NCBI GenBank assembly: GCA_014376535.1
Contig: JACMRH010000519.1
Span: 1 to 40,534, forward strand
Length of the DNA: 40,534 nucleotides
From: Cytophagales bacterium
GTDB lineage: Bacteria; Bacteroidota; Bacteroidia; Cytophagales; UBA9547
Reading direction: 5' to 3'
A program made the position numbers and the translations under genes. Within the stretch, counting starts at the first letter, position 1; every line of letters starts with the position of its first letter. Shown in pieces: positions 230 to 11,789 of this stretch. The notes below the pieces were generated by a model. That model was not told the origin of the DNA, did not search any database, and saw only the letters and a list, made by a program, of their open reading frames with translations.

Positions 230-1180
230 ATGAGAATTGCAGTAGATGCGATGGGAGGGGACAATGCTCCCGACCTCGTTATTGAAGGTGCTATTTTAGC
301 TAGTAAAGAATTAGCCTCAGATACTAAACTTATTCTTATTGGTGATGAAATTATTATCACATCAATATTGAATAGAAATGGAGGCAAACCTTCTAATATT
401 GAAGTTGTACATGCTTCAGAAGTAGTTGGTATGGATGAACATCCAACCAAGGCTATTTCACAAAAAAAGGATTCAAGCATTATAGTAGGTTATCAGCTAC
501 TTGCTTCTAAGCAAGCAGATTTATTCTGCAGTGCCGGGAATACCGGCGCAATGCTTGTTGGTGCCATGTTTACTATTAAACCTATAGAGGGCGTGTTGCG
601 TCCGGGAATTGCCGGATTTATTCCTCAGGTTTCAGGTAGATATGGTATTTTGATGGATGTAGGAGCAAATACGGACTGTAAACCAGAAGCTCTTGTTCAG
701 TTTGCTGAAATGGCAAGTATTTTTGCTACGGACCTGTATCAAATAGAAAAACCGAGAGTTGGTTTGATCAATGTAGGAGAAGAAGAGCAAAAAGGTTCAT
801 TGTTAACCCAGGCTACCTATCAATTACTAAAAGTTAACCCTAATATAAATTTTGTCGGAAATCTTGAAGGAAGGGATATATACAATGATAAAGTTGATGT
901 AATGGTTTGTGATGGTTTTGTAGGAAATGTTATCCTAAAAGCGTCAGAAGGCCTTTATCCTTTGTTAAAACAAAGAAATTTTACCGATTCCTTTATTGAT
1001 ATGTTCCATTGGGAAACAGTTGGAGGAAGTCCTATTTTAGGTGTTAATGGAGATGTTGTAATTGGGCATGGTTCATCTGGCCTGATGGCTATTAAAAATA
1101 TGATTTTGCTTTCCCAAAGCCTTGCAAAATCTGAAATATCCAAAAAAATCAAAAACGCTTACAGTAAAGTAAGTTCTTAG
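230..1180 (+). CDS. plsX: Phosphate acyltransferase PlsX
   Basis: [40 protein letters not shown] motifs. Confidence 0.97.
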
Positions 1181-6578: not shown

Positions 6579-7265
6579 CTACTCTTCCTTTTTGAAAAAC
6601 TTATATGTTAAACCAGTAGTGAATAATGCTCCTCCTAAACCCAAATCTACATTAGCACCCAGGTTTTCGTTAAAAAATATTCTCATACCAAAACCAGCTC
6701 TCAAACCGATTGGAATAAAATTTTCAGATCCACCATTGCTGTAACTCCCATTATTATAAGAAGAGTATGAATTAGTAGATGAATAGGTATGGGTGTAGTT
6801 AACATATCCAAAGCCTACGTGAACGTAAGGATCTACTTTTGAACTACTACCCAAATGAACAATAAACCTTCCTAAAGCGGTTATCCTCGCTAAGGATTCA
6901 TTTACATCATATTTATTTTGAATAGTTGTTCCGGGAGCATAACCATCGTTATAGTAATATTGACCAAGATATAAATTTTCAGTTCTGGTTCCACTTAGGG
7001 CAGTTTTAACATACCAAAGGTCTAAACCAAAACCAATCCGCCTTGCTATAAGGTATTCAATTCTACCTCCTATAAAACCTGTGGACTTAATATTAAACTT
7101 ATTTGACCCATTTGAAGGATAATTATTCCTAAACTCATATTTGTAAAACCAATCAGGAAATCCATAATATACATCAACGAAAACATCCCCAGCTTTAGTT
7201 TGGCTAAAAGTATTATTGGCAGATAAGAGGAATAAGGTTGCGGATAATAATATGAGTTTTTTCAC
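6579..7265 (-). CDS. Outer-membrane beta-barrel protein
   Basis: Probable GTG start at 7265 gives signal peptide (M)KKLILLSATLFLLSANNTFS-Q; alternating beta-strand pattern (DPYVHVGFGY, GLRAGFGMRIFF, GLTYKF). The ORF track start at 7346 is probably too long. Confidence 0.75.
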   Translation of the reverse strand: MKKLILLSATLFLLSANNTFSQTKAGDVFVDVYYGFPDWFYKYEFRNNYPSNGSNKFNIKSTGFIGGRIEYLIARRIGFGLDLWYVKTALSGTRTENLYLGQYYYNDGYAPGTTIQNKYDVNESLARITALGRFIVHLGSSSKVDPYVHVGFGYVNYTHTYSSTNSYSSYNNGSYSNGGSENFIPIGLRAGFGMRIFFNENLGANVDLGLGGALFTTGLTYKFFKKEE

Positions 7266-7357
7266 GTAATGTAGTTTATGTGCAATATTATAAAGAAGTA
7301 TGATTAAGGTGTAATTATAATTCAATGAAATATAATCTAGGATCAATTATTATCCAT

Positions 7358-9787
7358 TTAATTTTTGTGATACCTATCAAACAGATCTAAAGCAATATTC
7401 ATTTTACCATCTTTCTCCCGTGCCCTTAAACGGAGATTTCCGTGTTGAATGTCTTTAATTTTAACATATTCGCTGTTTTGGTCTTTGAGGTTAGATAATG
7501 GTATTTGAATACTTAAATCTGTTTTGTGCTTAAAACTAAAGATGCCTTCCAGATAAAGACTTAATACAGTGGAACTCACAACCATTTTTTCAATATAAAG
7601 CTCCTCTCCTTCCAGAACAAAAATGTTATTAATTTCGTCAAAATGTATATGCATCATGTCCCGGTTCTTGAATACCAAATCACCTACTTTTTTTAAAGGT
7701 TCAAAGTTTTTTAACTGCCCTTGTGTTAATAACATACTCATTTTACCTTTAATTGTTCTCTGAATTGGCTCAAAGGATCTATTCGTTTGACAGTTAATAT
7801 TCACCTTTGCATCAATTAATCCAGCCAGGTTTTCATTAGTGAGTGAATTTTGTCCAAAATTGTTAAAACCATAAAAAAGTTTTGATGCATCAATATTTTT
7901 CAAATTGGCTTCTATTTTTACTTTACCTGAGTCGTTATCCTGAAAAATATAGGCCCCATTCATGGTAATTATTCCTTTTGTAGGCATAGATAATTTCCAA
8001 TTATTAAGAGATATGGCATCATTGGATATTCCAACATTGCCTTTAATTTCGTTTGTTATCAGCTTTTTATACTCGAATTGCTTTAGATAAACATCAAAAT
8101 CCATTTCCATTTTACTCATTATTTTATGCAGATGCCCCATAAAAGGCTTTGATGCATTCTTTTTAGAGTCTAATTTTTTATGTTCACTTTTAACAAGAAG
8201 TTTATTTAAATTAAAATAGGGAGAGGTTATATTCAGCTTTGCCTTTATATTATTTTCAGGAAAAAGAAGGTATGATACCATGTTATTTAATTCTCCTCCA
8301 ATGTGAACCTGATTATCATTGATCTTACAGGATAAATCTTTAACATTGACATTAGTATTGAGGAAATTTAAATCCCCATTAATATCTGAAAGGACAAGCT
8401 GTTTTTTTACAATGTCCATTTTCCCGTCATTAATTTTTAATCCAGCATTTATATATCCTTTCATCATAATAGGATCAGGAATGTTTTTTAAGGATATTGG
8501 GCCTTTTTGGGCAAGATTAAATGAAAAGGTACCATTAGAAAACTTATACACAGCGGTATCTAAATAGTGGTGAAAAGCCTTTAAAGGCCCGCTAACAACT
8601 GCATTGATATTTGTTTCTGGCACATTAAGGTTCTGAAGATTCCCGACCACTTTAAAATTTATTTCTTTATAATAAAAATCTGATGAGTTGATATTCAGAA
8701 TGGAATTTTCATCACTTGAGAGTTGTAAAGTATCAATGTGATTATTAAATTCTCCGTTTAGTTTTACATTATCAAGAAAATAATCAATTAACCTTACCCT
8801 ACTATTGTCAATCTGAAAATTAACTTTTGCAAAAGGTTGTACTCCTGGCTTTGTATCCAGAACCAAATGAACCTGAGCATTTAGGCCCTGGTCGACATGA
8901 AACTGATTGAGCACCTTTTGTAAATGTGTGTTTAATAAAGAGATTGCTTTACTGTAATCAGTGTTTGAAGTATTGATGTCAAGGTAAATAAGAGGCAATT
9001 TTTGGTTCAATCTGGATTTACCTGATACTTCGTAAAGCTGGCCCTGAGTACTTATAGTTGAAGGCAACAAAGTCAACAAGCTATCAGCTTGATTGTAGGT
9101 AAGGTTTAAGCTTAATTGTAACTCTTTGTTTTGAAGGAATGGTCCTTTTAGATTATTGAACAATAGGCCTTCAGAAAAAATCTGACCGTTTATATGGCAG
9201 GTCATTTCTTTATCAGATTTCTTTACGCTTATAAGTATATCATTACAAGCAAGTTGAATGCGCTTTTTTTTCTTATCATCTAAGTATACTAATGATACTT
9301 TTTTGAATATTATCTTTTTTAGGTTAAAATCCATCAGTGAAGATTTCACACTTCTTGTTGTGTCCGATTTTAATGTTTTCCGTGAGAACACTGATAAGTT
9401 TGAATACCCTAAAGAATCTTTAAAAATGTTAAAGTTGGCATTTTGGAGAATTATACTTTTTACATCAAGTTCTTTCTTCAACAATTTCAAAAGATGTATT
9501 TGCAAATAAACCTTTTCAGCTTTGATTACTTCATTGTTATAAACTGAGTCTTTTATTGTAAGTCCGATTAAAGTGACAGATACAGAAGGAAATTCCCGGA
9601 ATATGGTGAAACTTATATTATCTAAATGGGCGCTTCCAGCTATTCCATTATCAATTTCTGTATTGAAATAAGCAAGGATGTCTTTCTTATAAACACTTGC
9701 AACAGAGTATGATATAATGAGGAGACTTATTAGAAATAAGAAAATCCAGGAAAAAAGTTTAAAAATAAAAATAGTAGATCTTTTCAT
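7358..9787 (-). CDS. AsmA-like family protein
   Basis: N-terminal TM anchor, FREFPSVSV, long beta-rich body, C-terminal NFGQ..LT..NLAG, L.NFEPL, DLSIQIPL as in Bacteroidota AsmA-like proteins. Confidence 0.8.
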   Translation of the reverse strand: MKRSTIFIFKLFSWIFLFLISLLIISYSVASVYKKDILAYFNTEIDNGIAGSAHLDNISFTIFREFPSVSVTLIGLTIKDSVYNNEVIKAEKVYLQIHLLKLLKKELDVKSIILQNANFNIFKDSLGYSNLSVFSRKTLKSDTTRSVKSSLMDFNLKKIIFKKVSLVYLDDKKKKRIQLACNDILISVKKSDKEMTCHINGQIFSEGLLFNNLKGPFLQNKELQLSLNLTYNQADSLLTLLPSTISTQGQLYEVSGKSRLNQKLPLIYLDINTSNTDYSKAISLLNTHLQKVLNQFHVDQGLNAQVHLVLDTKPGVQPFAKVNFQIDNSRVRLIDYFLDNVKLNGEFNNHIDTLQLSSDENSILNINSSDFYYKEINFKVVGNLQNLNVPETNINAVVSGPLKAFHHYLDTAVYKFSNGTFSFNLAQKGPISLKNIPDPIMMKGYINAGLKINDGKMDIVKKQLVLSDINGDLNFLNTNVNVKDLSCKINDNQVHIGGELNNMVSYLLFPENNIKAKLNITSPYFNLNKLLVKSEHKKLDSKKNASKPFMGHLHKIMSKMEMDFDVYLKQFEYKKLITNEIKGNVGISNDAISLNNWKLSMPTKGIITMNGAYIFQDNDSGKVKIEANLKNIDASKLFYGFNNFGQNSLTNENLAGLIDAKVNINCQTNRSFEPIQRTIKGKMSMLLTQGQLKNFEPLKKVGDLVFKNRDMMHIHFDEINNIFVLEGEELYIEKMVVSSTVLSLYLEGIFSFKHKTDLSIQIPLSNLKDQNSEYVKIKDIQHGNLRLRAREKDGKMNIALDLFDRYHKN

Positions 9788-9921
9788 TGGTATTGAGTGT
9801 TAAAAAATAAAGCCATGAAAAAAACCGGCATTATATATTAAAAGAGACGTCAAGGCATTTCAAATTATTACAGAATTTAATTTCAAAAAATCATGATAAA
9901 ACATTATTTTCAAAATTTAAT

Positions 9922-9950
9922 TTTGTTTACAAACAATTTACGTATATTTG
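9922..9950 (+). promoter_or_regulatory. Bacteroidota sigma-A type promoter
   Basis: TTTG at 9922-9925 (-33) and TATATTTG at 9943-9950 (matches TAnnTTTG -7 element); spacer 17 nt, slightly short. Confidence 0.7.
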
Positions 9951-9953
9951 TGC

Positions 9954-10040
9954 ATGTTCAATCCCGAACACATATCGACACCTCTCAGGCTTTTACAAAG
10001 CCTAATTCCTGCATCGGATTCCTGTTGTTGTTGCTGCTAA
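9954..10040 (+). CDS. Poly-cysteine leader peptide (28 aa), putative attenuator sORF; absent from the ORF track
   Basis: Manual translation: MFNPEHISTPLRLLQSLIPASDSCCCCC*; ends TGT TGT TGT TGC TGC TAA; ATG lies 3 nt after the -7 promoter element; upstream of tRNA-Cys. Confidence 0.8.
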   Translation: MFNPEHISTPLRLLQSLIPASDSCCCCC

Positions 10041-10088
10041 TTTCCTATCCAGCTTCATTTTCATTTCTTTAATTTAAACTTCTTCGCT

Positions 10089-10358
10089 ATGAACAAGTCC
10101 GGAATCAAATTAACAAGTTTCAAAAATTTCCTAAATAAATATTTTATTTATCACTCAGATGGTATTGTTTTAAACACATATATCGATGTATTATCAGATT
10201 TCTCTGACCCTAGAGTCTCTTTCCTTGAATTGAATATTGAAAATGGCAACAATCGAAAAGATTGGCTTCACTACAGCTATTATCCTTATTTAGGAACCAG
10301 TTTAAATTTAAAAATTAAGGAAGAAAATACAACGTTTGGTTATTTGTATAATAACTAA
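10089..10358 (+). CDS. Hypothetical 89-aa protein between the poly-Cys leader and tRNA-Cys
   Basis: Open ATG..TAA frame filling the leader-tRNA gap; no family recognised; no Cys and no internal Met. Confidence 0.45.
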   Translation: MNKSGIKLTSFKNFLNKYFIYHSDGIVLNTYIDVLSDFSDPRVSFLELNIENGNNRKDWLHYSYYPYLGTSLNLKIKEENTTFGYLYNN

Positions 10359-10365
10359 ACTATTT

Positions 10366-10436
10366 GGCTACGTGTCCGAGTGGTCAGGTACGGGTCTGCA
10401 AAACCTTTTACAGCGGTTCGAATCCGCTCGTAGCCT
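10366..10436 (+). tRNA. trnC: tRNA-Cys (GCA)
   Basis: Acceptor stem GGCTACG/CGTAGCC, anticodon loop CT-GCA-AA (GCA at 10398-10400), T arm AGCGG-TTCGAAT-CCGCT, U discriminator; CCA not encoded (CCT follows). Confidence 0.95.
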
Positions 10437-10544
10437 CCTTTTTAATTAAAGATTAACAATTATTAATTAAAGTTTCACTGTAGAAATTGAACTATAAAAT
10501 TTTCTCTAATCTTACTTATTATGTCTTATAACTAAGATATTAAA

Positions 10545-11789
10545 CTAAACAATTTGTTTATTAAAACAGAAGATAAATTCAGTTCCCATGTTTTTTTGAC
10601 TGTTTACTTTAATCGAAACATTGTATTTATCTAAAAGCTTTTTCACAATATAAAGGCCCATTCCCGTTCCTTCAATATCCTGGTTATCCATTCTTTCAAA
10701 TAGGTTGAATAACTTCCCTTTTTCTTCATCATTCATTCCCCGACCATTGTCTGCAACTGATAAATATTTTATTCCATCAAGAGTTGTAAAGTTTAATTTC
10801 AAATAAGGATCCCTATCAGGGTGTTTGTATTTTATCGCATTGGTAATGAGATTATAAAGCAAACTTTTAAAAGCCACTCTATTAAATGTAAAATCTTCTA
10901 CTTCAGAAAAGTTATTAACTATTACTGAATTGGATTTATTTATCAAAGAAGCTATACTGGTTTCAATTTCTTCTAATACTGGTTTTACTTTAAAAGTTTC
11001 GAAAGAAGTGCCTTCATTTTCCTTTCTGATAATATCTATCAGTTCGTTTATGGTGTTTTTTAACTGCACTATTGCACCTCCCTGCATCTTTAGTATTTCT
11101 AAAACATCTTCTGGAATAGGACTTTCCAGCTCGTCTTCTAGTGCACTAATTAAGGCTTCCAGGTTTGCAACTGGCAGTTTAAGGTCGTGGGAAGCGGTAT
11201 AAACAAATTGATCAAGGTTGTTATTTAGAGATATTAGCTTTTGGTTATAAATCTGTAATTCAGCCTCAATAGTTTTTCTTTTCTCTATTTCGGAATTGAG
11301 GTCAGTATTTTTCTTGTTCAGGTCCGATGTTCTTTGTTGTACGATCAATTCCAGGTTATTGTATGCCTCTTCCAGTTTCCTTTGTTGAATATAGATATCT
11401 ATAAAAGAATATACTTTAGAACGGGTAATTACAGGATCTAATGGCTTGAACAGGTAATCAACCGCTCCCTTGCTGTAACCTTCTGAAACATATTTAGTTT
11501 CATGGTTCATTGCGGTGACGAAAATGATCGGGATATTTTGGGAAGTCTTCGATTTTTTTAAATAAGAAGCGACCTCATAACCATCCATTTCTGGCATTTG
11601 CACATCTAAAAGTATTAAGGCTATGTCGCCTTTGTATGCTATTTTTAGTGCTTCATTGCCCGAAGTTGCGCGAAGAAAATTAACTGATCTTTCTTCCATG
11701 TTTAGCAAATTTTCCAGTGCATATATATTTTCTTCCTTATCATCCACTATCAGGACGTTCACAGAAATATTTTTTTGATTTGAATTCAT
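10545..11789 (-). CDS. REC-HisKA-HATPase hybrid histidine kinase/response regulator
   Basis: VLIVDD, LLDVQMPEMDG, FVYTASHDLKLP, NLITNAIKY, DNGRGM, GTGMGL. Confidence 0.93.
   Translation of the reverse strand: MNSNQKNISVNVLIVDDKEENIYALENLLNMEERSVNFLRATSGNEALKIAYKGDIALILLDVQMPEMDGYEVASYLKKSKTSQNIPIIFVTAMNHETKYVSEGYSKGAVDYLFKPLDPVITRSKVYSFIDIYIQQRKLEEAYNNLELIVQQRTSDLNKKNTDLNSEIEKRKTIEAELQIYNQKLISLNNNLDQFVYTASHDLKLPVANLEALISALEDELESPIPEDVLEILKMQGGAIVQLKNTINELIDIIRKENEGTSFETFKVKPVLEEIETSIASLINKSNSVIVNNFSEVEDFTFNRVAFKSLLYNLITNAIKYKHPDRDPYLKLNFTTLDGIKYLSVADNGRGMNDEEKGKLFNLFERMDNQDIEGTGMGLYIVKKLLDKYNVSIKVNSQKNMGTEFIFCFNKQIV

What the first reader, a model, noticed from the sequence alone, without database searches (positions are those of the whole stretch)
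9943..10040. Unannotated, apparently leaderless poly-cysteine peptide: candidate cysteine-sensing attenuator
Seen: ATG at 9954 opens MFNPEHISTPLRLLQSLIPASDSCCCCC*, with five consecutive Cys codons (TGTx3, TGCx2) directly before the stop, and the ATG lies 3 nt after a TATATTTG -7 element, roughly at the expected TSS. The mixed TGT/TGC codons fit selection on the amino acid better than a simple microsatellite. Known: runs of one codon type in leader peptides sense the charged tRNA, and leaderless poly-Cys sORFs act as cysteine-responsive attenuators in mycobacteria. Inference: this is an analogous sensor in Bacteroidota, where I do not know of it being described.
Basis: partly seen in the sequence, partly recalled or inferred. 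Interest (0 to 1): 0.9.

Follow-up and report, generated by a model that had tools for sequence, protein, structure and literature searches.

The report
Poly-cysteine leader ORF before tRNA-Cys
A tiny 28-codon gene ending in five cysteine codons sits at the start of a transcript that also carries a small sulfur-free protein and an extra cysteine tRNA gene, and comparison with relatives suggests it lets the ribosome sense cysteine supply, as known in mycobacteria but not so far in this bacterial phylum.

Summary
ATG 9954 to TAA 10040 encodes 28 codons ending in five Cys codons, 3 nt after TATATTTG.

It is conserved. A same-genus Cytophagales MAG has the syntenic copy with 28 codons, four Cys then Arg. 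Contig C403 of the same assembly holds a second copy, also 28 codons, with five Cys codons spelled differently and a middle part at random-level identity. Only the Cys frame is open in all three.

Downstream in the window lie ORF89 and an extra tRNA-Cys. ORF89 has no Cys and dN/dS 0.17. On C403 the sORF precedes an O-acetylhomoserine-sulfhydrylase-like pseudoenzyme, a tRNA-Cys and a family 2A encapsulin.

Unrelated sORFs ending in Cys runs precede metY, cysHDN, sulfite reductase, cysS and sulfate-binding genes elsewhere in Bacteroidota, often just after a SAM-I riboswitch.

Best reading (about 0.6): a Cys-tRNA-sensing leader ORF. No terminator was found. A predicted helix links the Cys tract's flank to the first codons of ORF89.

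Expression, the transcription start and cysteine response are untested. This is a new variant of a known kind.

The parts
9922..9925 (+). TTTG, candidate -33 element of a Bacteroidota sigma-A promoter
   Evidence: Read; 17 nt upstream of the -7 box. G002 has TTTG 18 nt upstream of its box. The -33 TTTG consensus is recalled and was not checked in a paper here.
9943..9950 (+). TATATTTG, candidate -7 box (TAnnTTTG)
   Evidence: The same motif lies 3 nt (G002: TACCTTTG) and 4 nt (C403: TAATTTTG) before the ATG. The box occupies -12..-5 in F. psychrophilum (PMC9723704, passage). No other + strand TAnnTTTG lies between 9951 and 14349.
9954..10040 (+). 28-codon sORF (MFNPEHISTPLRLLQSLIPASDSCCCCC, then TAA), candidate leaderless sensory leader ORF
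   Evidence: Conserved at 28 codons in G002 and C403. It is the only frame open in all three copies. No Pfam match.
9955..9970 (+). Palindrome TGTTC-N6-GAACA (5' hairpin H0 or DNA operator), inside codons 1-6
   Evidence: Codons 1-8 are 23 of 24 nt identical between window and G002 and 21 of 24 between window and C403, with no synonymous change against G002, although local dS is 1.3-1.7. Its function is unexplained.
9987..10003 (+). Mid-sORF hairpin H2 (window and G002 only)
   Evidence: one pair changes C-G to U-A between window and G002. It is not kept in C403.
10023..10037 (+). Cys tract, codons 24-28 (TGT TGT TGT TGC TGC)
   Evidence: C403 spells it TGT TGT TGC TGT TGT; G002 spells it TGT TGT TGT TGC CGC (Arg).
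10017..10022 (+). 5' arm of predicted long-range helix H1 (GAUUCC), abutting the Cys tract
   Evidence: It pairs with 10101-10106. In G002 the helix is 8 contiguous bp and includes UG of the first Cys codon. A C-G to U-A compensatory change separates window and G002. In one search, 3 of its 6 pairs change on both sides across the 3 sequences (the structure was derived from those same sequences).
10078..10098 (+). Hairpin H4 around the ORF89 start codon (ACUUCUUC / GAACAAGU, AUG in loop and 3' arm)
   Evidence: all 8 pairs are kept in window, G002 and C403 (100% of cells paired; 3 pairs vary on one side only). This explains the conserved AAACTTCTTC block seen.
10101..10106 (+). 3' arm of H1 (GGAAUC), ORF89 codons 5-6
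10089..10358 (+). ORF89, an 89-aa protein without Cys and with one Met; residues 1-60 are homologous to the N-terminus of the C403 pseudoenzyme
   Evidence: BLASTP E 4e-10 with 38% identity over residues 1-60, plus a second weak segment. dN/dS 0.17 with dS 1.3 against G002. Three orthologues, all 89 aa. No Pfam or NCBIfam match. AlphaFold model unusable, pLDDT 44.
10366..10438 (+). tRNA-Cys (GCA), an extra copy, 7 nt after the ORF89 stop
   Evidence: ARAGORN; Rfam tRNA 52.4 bits. The assembly has 3 tRNA-Cys genes. The one on C274 follows rpsA, as in 10 of 18 relatives' loci.

Best explanation
The sORF is a sensory leader ORF. Transcription from the TAnnTTTG promoter starts at or next to the A of its ATG, so the mRNA is leaderless or nearly so. 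A ribosome translates 23 codons and then meets five Cys codons directly before the stop.

When Cys-tRNA(Cys) is plentiful, the ribosome finishes and leaves. The leader then folds so that the flank of the Cys tract (10017-10022) pairs with ORF89 codons 5-6 (10101-10106), stacked on a hairpin that holds the ORF89 start codon (10078-10098). ORF89 is then poorly translated.

When Cys-tRNA(Cys) is scarce, the ribosome dwells on the Cys tract and covers the 5' arm of that helix. The ORF89 start opens, and ORF89 and the co-transcribed extra tRNA-Cys are expressed more. The tRNA part may work through relief of polarity.

Shown:
- the anatomy
- conservation of frame, length and Cys positions
- purifying selection on ORF89
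- absence of a second TAnnTTTG before the tRNA
- the association of such sORFs with sulfur genes in the phylum

Inferred:
- the TSS
- translation of the sORF
- stalling
- the helix switch
- co-transcription of the tRNA
For: 1. Conservation as an ORF.
- All three copies have 28 codons, with Cys at codons 24-28 and a stop directly after.
- Codons 9-23 are 12 of 45 nt identical between window and C403, yet the length is unchanged.
- Only the Cys frame is open in all three.

2. Cys codon spelling. The three differences between window and C403 in the tract are all third-position T/C.

3. Context.
- The C403 copy precedes a PF01053 / OAH-OAS sulfhydrylase-like protein (9.8e-35), a tRNA-Cys and a family 2A encapsulin (NF041162, 9.5e-150).
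- 2A encapsulins are sulfur-starvation induced in Synechococcus (PMC8049743, passages read).

4. Sulfur-spared downstream proteins. ORF89 has 0 Cys and 1 Met. The C403 protein has 0 Cys and 2 Met.

5. Class evidence.
- 13 of 17 SAM-riboswitch metY leaders carry a Cys-rich sORF.
- 27 of 59 (TGY)5TAR hits in 151 Cytophagales genomes are intergenic ATG-started sORFs, against 9 control hits in all. Of the 27, 17 lie before metY. Others lie before cysH-cysD-cysN, sulfite reductase/CobA, TonB receptors, PhyH and an ATP-grasp gene.
- Outside the order, 4 of 14 hits are such sORFs, before cysS, a hexapeptide transferase, a sulfate-type binding protein and PhyH.

6. Structure.
- RNAalifold finds H1 and H4 in all three copies.
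- 4 pairs change on both sides, against 1.3 in shuffles (3 of 500 shuffles reach this).
- 92% of cells are paired, against 30-43% when the partners are slid.
- Masking the tract as a stalled ribosome frees the H1 3' arm in the fold.

7. Promoter geometry.

8. The mechanism has a tested precedent in mycobacteria (10.1101/834739; abstract and discussion read).
Against: - There are no expression data of any kind. No RNA run was listed (reported only as tried).
- Fold energies are unremarkable: z -1.66 and -1.57, with 12 and 15 of 200 shuffles folding as well.
- The structure was derived from the same three sequences on which it was counted, so the covariation counts lean towards it.
- In C403, H1 keeps only 4 of 6 pairs with a central 2x2 mismatch, and the MFE fold instead pairs the Cys tract with an intergenic segment.
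- With the tract masked, H4 still forms.
- G002 has Arg in place of the fifth Cys.
- The first 8 codons are conserved at the nucleotide level without synonymous change. Peptide or codon sensing does not explain this, and it points to an extra DNA or RNA element.
- A 5' hairpin that includes the AUG would not favour leaderless initiation.
- With the box at -12..-5, +1 in the window and G002 would fall on the U of AUG rather than the A.
- The family was found in only two species-level genomes and one extra contig.
- The function of ORF89 is unknown, and the benefit of making more tRNA-Cys when cysteine is short is conjecture.
- C403 may come from a co-binned relative rather than the same cell (assembly contamination 5.55%).
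Confidence: 0.6

Rival explanations
1. The sensor is the same, but the output is different. Ribosome stalling on the Cys tract controls Rho-dependent termination or polarity in the leader and ORF89, not a start-codon-masking helix. What is regulated is mainly read-through into ORF89 and tRNA-Cys.
For: No intrinsic terminator was found in the window, G002 or C403. The fold is only weakly stable. The tRNA has no TAnnTTTG of its own, so its level must depend on read-through. Rho-dependent control was proposed for actinobacterial Cys leader peptides that also lack terminators (PMC1262725, passages read).
Against: No Rho-utilisation features were examined. The leader is U/A-rich rather than C-rich by eye. 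The H4/H1 conservation would be left unexplained.
Confidence: 0.2
2. The ORF is incidental. The region is an untranslated 5' leader plus a promoter-proximal operator (TGTTC-N6-GAACA) bound by a transcription factor. The UGY repeat is an RNA or DNA element, or a simple repeat.
For: The first 24 nt are conserved at the nucleotide level with no synonymous change, and they form a perfect 5+5 palindrome. T/C changes in the tract are also synonymous in the Leu frame. G002 lost one Cys. With about 7% stop codons expected per codon, keeping 15 random codons open has a chance near 0.3 (own estimate from composition, not a tool result).
Against: The ATG, the frame, the exact 28-codon length and the stop directly after the run are kept in three copies, although the middle has diverged to random-level identity. 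The other two frames are interrupted. Unrelated sORFs of different sequence all end in Cys runs before sulfur genes. A non-coding repeat would not predict this.
Confidence: 0.12
3. The sORF encodes a functional Cys-rich micropeptide (metal- or thiol-binding, lipidated, or a RiPP precursor), not a sensor.
For: N-terminus MF(N/K)PE(H/L)IS and the C-terminal Cys run are conserved and the length is fixed.
Against: The middle 15 residues are free to vary. The conserved N-terminus is conserved as nucleotides, not only as residues. No modifying enzyme or transporter lies nearby. The flanking genes are a DUF748 protein and a response-regulator/histidine-kinase hybrid on the other strand. The sORF has no Pfam match. 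Cys-run sORFs elsewhere share nothing but the run.
Confidence: 0.07

Closest known systems
Mycobacterial polycysteine leaderless sORF attenuators (Ms5788A and the 'Cys ribulon'; Canestrari et al., bioRxiv 10.1101/834739; abstract and discussion read)
   Same: A short ORF at the 5' end of the transcript with a run of consecutive Cys codons, and no terminator. The proposed logic is that a ribosome paused in the Cys tract blocks an RNA duplex that otherwise masks the start region of the next gene. Several loci share the same signal.
   Different: - A different phylum, without Shine-Dalgarno-led initiation, so what is masked here is the start codon and first codons, not an SD.
- The downstream cargo here is a small unknown protein plus a tRNA-Cys gene. 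On C403 it is a pseudoenzyme, a tRNA-Cys and an encapsulin, rather than cysteine biosynthesis enzymes.
- The peptides share no sequence.
- Nothing was tested experimentally here.
Candidate Cys leader peptides of Actinobacteria (Seliverstov et al. 2005, PMC1262725; passages read)
   Same: Runs of Cys codons near the stop codon, no conserved terminator hairpin, mode of regulation open (Rho suggested).
   Different: They lie upstream of cys operons and cbs, in Actinobacteria only, and are not linked to a tRNA gene.
uORFC-8-2 motif upstream of cysS in Rhodobacterales (Brewer et al. 2021, PMC8632094; passage read)
   Same: A uORF with tandem Cys codons controls a gene of the Cys-tRNA charging system. 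The L106 case found here (six-Cys sORF before cysS) and the tRNA-Cys case follow the same logic.
   Different: That motif has two Cys codons inside a stem and a terminator with a U run. Here there are five Cys codons at the very end of the ORF and no terminator.
Classical leader-peptide transcription attenuators (trpL, hisL; Bacteroid-trp motif in Bacteroidota). Recalled, not checked in a paper or in Rfam output here.
   Same: Regulatory codons of the cognate amino acid in a short leader ORF.
   Different: No terminator or antiterminator pair was found, and there was no Rfam match in 9700-10600 at E up to 1 other than the tRNA.
SAM-I riboswitch plus Cys-run sORF leaders of Cytophagales sulfur genes (found here). 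My four searches did not find them described.
   Same: A C-terminal Cys run followed by a stop, or by a few codons; the same order of bacteria; sulfur-related downstream genes.
   Different: Those sORFs begin -2 to +34 nt after a SAM aptamer (11 of 13 within 14 nt). The window and C403 have no SAM aptamer, and there the promoter abuts the ATG.

Membership tests
Polycysteine leaderless sORF attenuators (mycobacterial type) | sORF with at least 2-3 consecutive Cys codons | tested here: met
   Five in the window and C403, four in G002.
Polycysteine leaderless sORF attenuators (mycobacterial type) | Transcript starts at the A/G of the sORF start codon (leaderless) | not testable with these tools
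   Motif geometry only. TAnnTTTG ends 3, 3 and 4 nt before the ATG, and the box lies at -12..-5 in F. psychrophilum. No RNA run was listed.
Polycysteine leaderless sORF attenuators (mycobacterial type) | RNA duplex masking the start region of the downstream gene, disrupted by a ribosome paused in the Cys tract | tested here: inconclusive
   H1 and H4 are predicted in all three copies, with compensatory changes. But there are only three sequences, z is about -1.6, H1 is weak in C403, and H4 persists when the tract is masked.
Polycysteine leaderless sORF attenuators (mycobacterial type) | Located before cysteine or sulfur metabolism genes | tested here: inconclusive
   Window: ORF89 (unknown function) plus tRNA-Cys. 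C403: sulfhydrylase-like pseudoenzyme, tRNA-Cys and 2A encapsulin. These are related to cysteine but are not biosynthetic enzymes.
Polycysteine leaderless sORF attenuators (mycobacterial type) | Downstream expression responds to cysteine through the Cys codons | not testable with these tools
   Needs reporters or proteomics.
Classical leader-peptide transcription attenuator | Intrinsic terminator with an alternative antiterminator overlapping the regulatory codons | tested here: not met
   0 terminator-like sites in 9700-10600. My own hairpin-plus-T-run scan found none in the window, G002 or C403.
   Rfam at E up to 1 on 9700-10600 gives only the tRNA. C403 at the gathering threshold gives only the tRNA.
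   compared.
RiPP precursor or Cys-rich micropeptide | Adjacent modifying enzyme or exporter and a conserved core peptide | tested here: not met
   The neighbours are a DUF748 protein and a response-regulator/histidine-kinase hybrid on the opposite strand. The middle of the peptide is not conserved.

The most novel reading that the evidence does not exclude
Bacteroidota have a ribosome-read 'cysteine regulon'. Short ORFs of independent origin, each ending in a Cys run, gate sulfate assimilation, homocysteine synthesis, sulfur uptake, cysS and, in this lineage, a dedicated starvation-inducible tRNA-Cys gene. In Cytophagales they are wired in series with a SAM-I riboswitch whose aptamer ends a few nucleotides before the sORF start. 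One leader would then integrate SAM (by RNA) and Cys-tRNA (by ribosome). The window shows the riboswitch-free, leaderless form, in which the supply of a tRNA is controlled by decoding of its own codons.
Probability: 0.3. Interest if true: 0.8.

Novelty: new variant of a known kind. Interest (0 to 1): 0.62.

Why it matters
Poly-Cys leader ORFs have been shown to work only in mycobacteria. Here the same device appears in a phylum that initiates translation without Shine-Dalgarno pairing, and it sits before a tRNA-Cys gene, which would be feedback on the decoding machinery itself.

The side finding may matter more. SAM-I riboswitches that are directly followed by Cys-run sORFs before most sulfur-assimilation operons of Cytophagales would be a composite RNA-plus-ribosome sensor. 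They would also explain how these riboswitches act in organisms where expression platforms are unclear.

Both ideas can be tested with simple reporters in tractable Bacteroidota.

Tried and rejected
- Rfam at E up to 1 on 9700-10600 gave only the tRNA.
- The sigma-70 and terminator scan gave nothing on the + strand.
- An exact-pattern scan for the sORF family (ATGTTCAANCCNGAAC, 40-70 nt, four TGY) found only G002's contig in genome contigs.
- The same scan in metagenome contigs gave two hits. Both lie out of frame inside unrelated genes and were rejected.
- ORF89 was searched in the 22 genomes of the family and found only in G000 and G002, plus the partial C403 match.
- The histidine-kinase neighbour was searched in G001, G003 and G004 to test synteny. 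There was no match at 1e-60, so it is uninformative.
- Encapsulin 2A operons of G012 and G015 were inspected and have no Cys-run sORF.
- Upstream regions of G000's own cysK-like, PAPS-reductase and sulfite-reductase genes have no ATG-started sORF with two or more adjacent Cys.
- RNA data: no RNA holder was listed for window 9700-10700.
- The AlphaFold2 model of ORF89 from a 3-sequence alignment had mean pLDDT 44.3 and was unusable. No fold search was run.
- Fragment alignment of the ORF89 C-terminal half to the sulfhydrylase family was inconsistent between orthologues. Only residues 1-60, and weakly 29-68, align by BLASTP.
- My terminator scan of SAM/Cys-sORF leaders found a hairpin plus T-run in 3 of 13 loci. 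In two of them (L040, L045) the 5' arm holds Cys codons. The scan is crude.
- Literature searches for a Bacteroidota Cys leader found none. Subscription journals are not covered, and supplements were not opened. Table S2 of 10.1101/834739 and the supplementary tables of PMC9723704, which list structured 5' regions and leader peptides, may bear on novelty.
Full report
**Observation.** On the + strand an ATG at 9954 opens a 28-codon frame, MFNPEHISTPLRLLQSLIPASDSCCCCC, that stops at TAA 10038-10040. The five Cys codons are TGT TGT TGT TGC TGC at 10023-10037. TATATTTG lies at 9943-9950, 3 nt before the ATG, and a TTTG lies at 9922-9925. The unit sits alone on the + strand between two minus-strand genes: a DUF748-like protein at 7358-9787 and a response-regulator/histidine-kinase hybrid at 10545-11789. 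Downstream on the same strand lie an 89-codon ORF (10089-10358) and, 7 nt after its stop, the only tRNA of the window, tRNA-Cys(GCA) at 10366-10438.

**Is it more than chance?** The 4.68-Mb assembly has 47 runs of four or more TGY codons. In only 2 of the 47 is the run in an ATG-started short frame and followed directly by a stop: this one and one on contig C403. Across 151 Cytophagales genomes the pattern (TGY)5TAR occurs 59 times, against 9 for the reversed control.

**Conservation.**
- A 551-nt query (9890-10440) matched over its full length in only one of 40 other genomes. That genome is G002, same genus, at 77% identity. It is a Cytophagales MAG by the title of its contig. The other matches cover only the tRNA.
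- G002 has the same layout and the same neighbours. Its sORF is MFKPEHISTSLRFNQDLLCTSDFCCCCR: 28 codons, four Cys, with CGC in place of the fifth.
- Contig C403 of the same assembly (3,251 nt) carries a further copy, MFNPELISQFTRNGNLFFQMFNRCCCCC, again 28 codons. Its Cys codons are TGT TGT TGC TGT TGT, and TAATTTTG lies 4 nt before the ATG.
- Between window and C403, codons 9-23 are 12 of 45 nt identical, which is random level. Yet the length, the ATG, the Cys positions and the stop are the same. The three differences inside the tract are all third-position T/C.
- The other two frames are interrupted in at least one copy, so only the Cys frame is conserved as an ORF.
- Against a simple peptide or codon reading: codons 1-8 are 23 of 24 nt identical between window and G002 with no synonymous change, although neighbouring genes have dS of 1.3-1.7. 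This block is a palindrome, TGTTC-N6-GAACA, and remains unexplained.
- C403 may belong to a co-binned relative rather than the same cell (contamination 5.55%). Either way it is an independent homologous copy.

**What lies downstream.**
- ORF89 has no family match.
- It is under purifying selection: dN/dS 0.17 at dS 1.3 against G002. The neighbouring kinase gives 0.025.
- It has three 89-aa orthologues among 5.8 billion proteins.
- It contains no Cys and one Met.
- Its first 60 residues align with the first 60 of the 403-aa protein that follows the sORF on C403 (38% identity, E 4e-10). A second weak segment aligns to residues 178-225.
- That 403-aa protein is a Cys/Met-metabolism PLP-enzyme homologue (PF01053 9.8e-35; TIGR01326 2.1e-50, far below the curated cut-off). 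The Lys of the ESATKW motif, which I recall as the PLP lysine, is replaced (ESLEDF), and the protein has no Cys.
- On C403 it is followed by a tRNA-Cys 90% identical to the window's, and then by a family 2A encapsulin shell gene (NF041162, 9.5e-150), which runs off the contig.
- 2A encapsulins carry a cysteine desulfurase and are induced by sulfur starvation in Synechococcus (PMC8049743, passages).
- The assembly has three tRNA-Cys genes. The one on C274 follows rpsA, as in 10 of 18 relatives' tRNA-Cys loci. The window and C403 copies are therefore extra, sORF-led copies.
- No other + strand TAnnTTTG lies between 9951 and 14349. Co-transcription of the tRNA with the sORF and ORF89 is inferred from this.

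**The same device elsewhere.** I fetched 25 canonical metY loci of the order.
- 17 of the 25 have a SAM-I riboswitch.
- 13 of those 17 have an ATG-started ORF of 34-55 codons with a Cys-rich tail. It begins -2 to +34 nt after the aptamer match, within 14 nt in 11 of the 13.
- Of the 8 loci without SAM, 1 has such an ORF, and it lies inside an opposite-strand gene.

The 59 (TGY)5TAR hits break down as follows.

| Class | Hits | Notes |
|---|---|---|
| Directly upstream of metY | 17 | 8 seen in sequence, 9 by coordinates against |
| Other intergenic ATG-started sORFs | 8 | before TonB-dependent receptors, a PhyH dioxygenase, an ATP-grasp gene, sulfite reductase plus CobA, and cysH-cysD-cysN; one unknown |
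| The window family | 2 | window and C403 |
| Six-codon ORF, unclear | 1 | L085 |
| Inside larger ORFs or lacking an ATG | 31 | rejected |

One genome, G078, has four such leaders, each behind a SAM aptamer where checked. In a phylum-level sample (119 genomes outside the order) the strict pattern is barely enriched: 14 hits against 8 control. But 4 of the 14 are intergenic ATG-started sORFs. They precede cysS, a hexapeptide (CysE-like) transferase, a sulfate-type binding protein and a PhyH dioxygenase, none with a SAM aptamer. The canonical metY proteins I translated have 0 Cys and 2 Met.

**Mechanism.**
- No intrinsic terminator was found.
- Folding of window and G002 gives the same architecture:
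  - a 5' hairpin (the palindrome);
  - a mid-sORF hairpin;
  - a hairpin H4 that holds the ORF89 start codon (ACUUCUUC/GAACAAGU, 10078-10098);
  - stacked on H4, a long-range helix H1 between GAUUCC at 10017-10022, abutting the first Cys codon, and GGAAUC at 10101-10106, ORF89 codons 5-6.
- In G002, H1 is 8 contiguous base pairs. One pair is C-G in the window and U-A in G002.
- RNAalifold on the three copies keeps H1 and H4.
- Counted on that alignment, 92% of cells pair, against 30-43% for slid partners. Four pairs change on both sides, against 1.3 in shuffles. H4 is paired in all cells.
- Caveats: there are only three sequences; the structure was derived from them; z-scores are only -1.66 and -1.57; H1 is weak in C403; H4 persists when the tract is masked.
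- The model is the mycobacterial one: a ribosome paused in the Cys tract blocks a duplex that masks the next gene's start (10.1101/834739, abstract and discussion).
- A Rho-dependent output is the main rival for this step (PMC1262725).

**Leaderless?** In F. psychrophilum the sigma-A box TAnnTTTG occupies -12..-5, and 5.5% of mRNAs are leaderless (PMC9723704, passages). With that spacing, +1 is the A of the ATG on C403 and the next base in the window and G002. A start at the A is plausible but unproven. The TTG at 9948 that the ORF lister uses lies inside the box and would not be transcribed.

**Comparison and novelty.** The finding works like the mycobacterial polycysteine leaderless sORFs and like the Cys-codon uORF before cysS in Rhodobacterales (PMC8632094, passage). 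It fails the defining test of a classical attenuator, which is a terminator. Five literature searches found no description of Cys leader ORFs in Bacteroidota, nor of SAM-riboswitch/Cys-sORF leaders. The library lacks most subscription journals, and supplements were closed. I rate it a new variant of a known kind.

**Verdict.** Confidence that this is a Cys-tRNA-sensing leader ORF is about 0.6. The helix-unmasking step is the least secure part.

Noticed in passing
L034, L037-L040, L043-L046, L048, L052-L054 (metY loci of Cytophagales); L068, L069, L071, L072, L081, L082, L084, L088, L089, L092: SAM-I riboswitch aptamers (RF00162) are followed within a few nucleotides by the ATG of a 33-55-codon ORF with a Cys-rich (often Met- and Cys-rich) tail. 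This holds for 13 of 17 SAM-bearing metY leaders, and for 10 of 15 further loci scanned. It looks like a composite riboswitch plus leader-ORF sensor. I found no description of it.
   Followed up: partly
G078: L094 (oriented 2498-2605 and 7171-7299), L095 (oriented 2441-2575), and G078:C63 about 105405: One genome carries four SAM-aptamer plus poly-Cys sORF leaders. They lie before a TonB receptor with a PF03601 protein, sulfite reductase with CobA, cysH-cysD-cysN, and metY. This looks like a regulon read by the ribosome. The aptamer at the metY leader on C63 was not scanned.
   Followed up: partly
L106 (G339), L111 (G341), L112 (G357), L108 (G347), L076 (G115): Outside or beside Cytophagales, sORFs ending in five to seven Cys precede cysS (PF01406 7e-99), a hexapeptide transferase, a sulfate-type binding protein (SBP_bac_11) and PhyH dioxygenases. 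The four scanned with Rfam (L106, L108, L111, L112) have no SAM aptamer, and L076 also gave no SAM match.
   Followed up: partly
L024 (G000 contig C403) 1010-2218 minus strand; L026-L029 (genus g101): 403-aa O-acetylhomoserine-sulfhydrylase homologues lack the Lys of the ESATKW motif (ESLEDF, ESTSEY) and contain no Cys, so they are likely pseudoenzymes. The C403 one sits between a poly-Cys sORF and tRNA-Cys plus a 2A encapsulin. It could be a cargo or a regulator.
   Followed up: partly
window 9955-9970; same block in L060 766-781 and on C403: The palindrome TGTTC-N6-GAACA directly after the predicted TSS is conserved at the nucleotide level beyond what coding explains. It could be a repressor operator or a 5' stabilising hairpin.
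   Followed up: no
L024 (C403) 917-988 minus strand: As I read the ARAGORN sequence, the C403 tRNA-Cys copy begins with A opposite G at the top of the acceptor stem. It may be impaired, or there may be an assembly error.
   Followed up: no
metY proteins of L030, L031, L043 (and ORF89, C403 protein): Canonical O-acetylhomoserine sulfhydrylases of 433-445 aa contain 0 Cys and only 2 Met. This is sulfur sparing in sulfur-assimilation enzymes.
   Followed up: no
G054:C5:11211-14270 (L073): Seven copies of the same (TGY)5TAA word lie at multiples of 234 nt, with no ATG in frame. It is a tandem repeat array of unknown nature.
   Followed up: no
L040 oriented 375-414; L045 oriented 1043-1087: In two GC-rich leaders, a hairpin followed by a T run has the last Cys codons in its 5' arm. 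This fits a one-hairpin attenuator in which a ribosome stalled on Cys codons would prevent termination.
   Followed up: no
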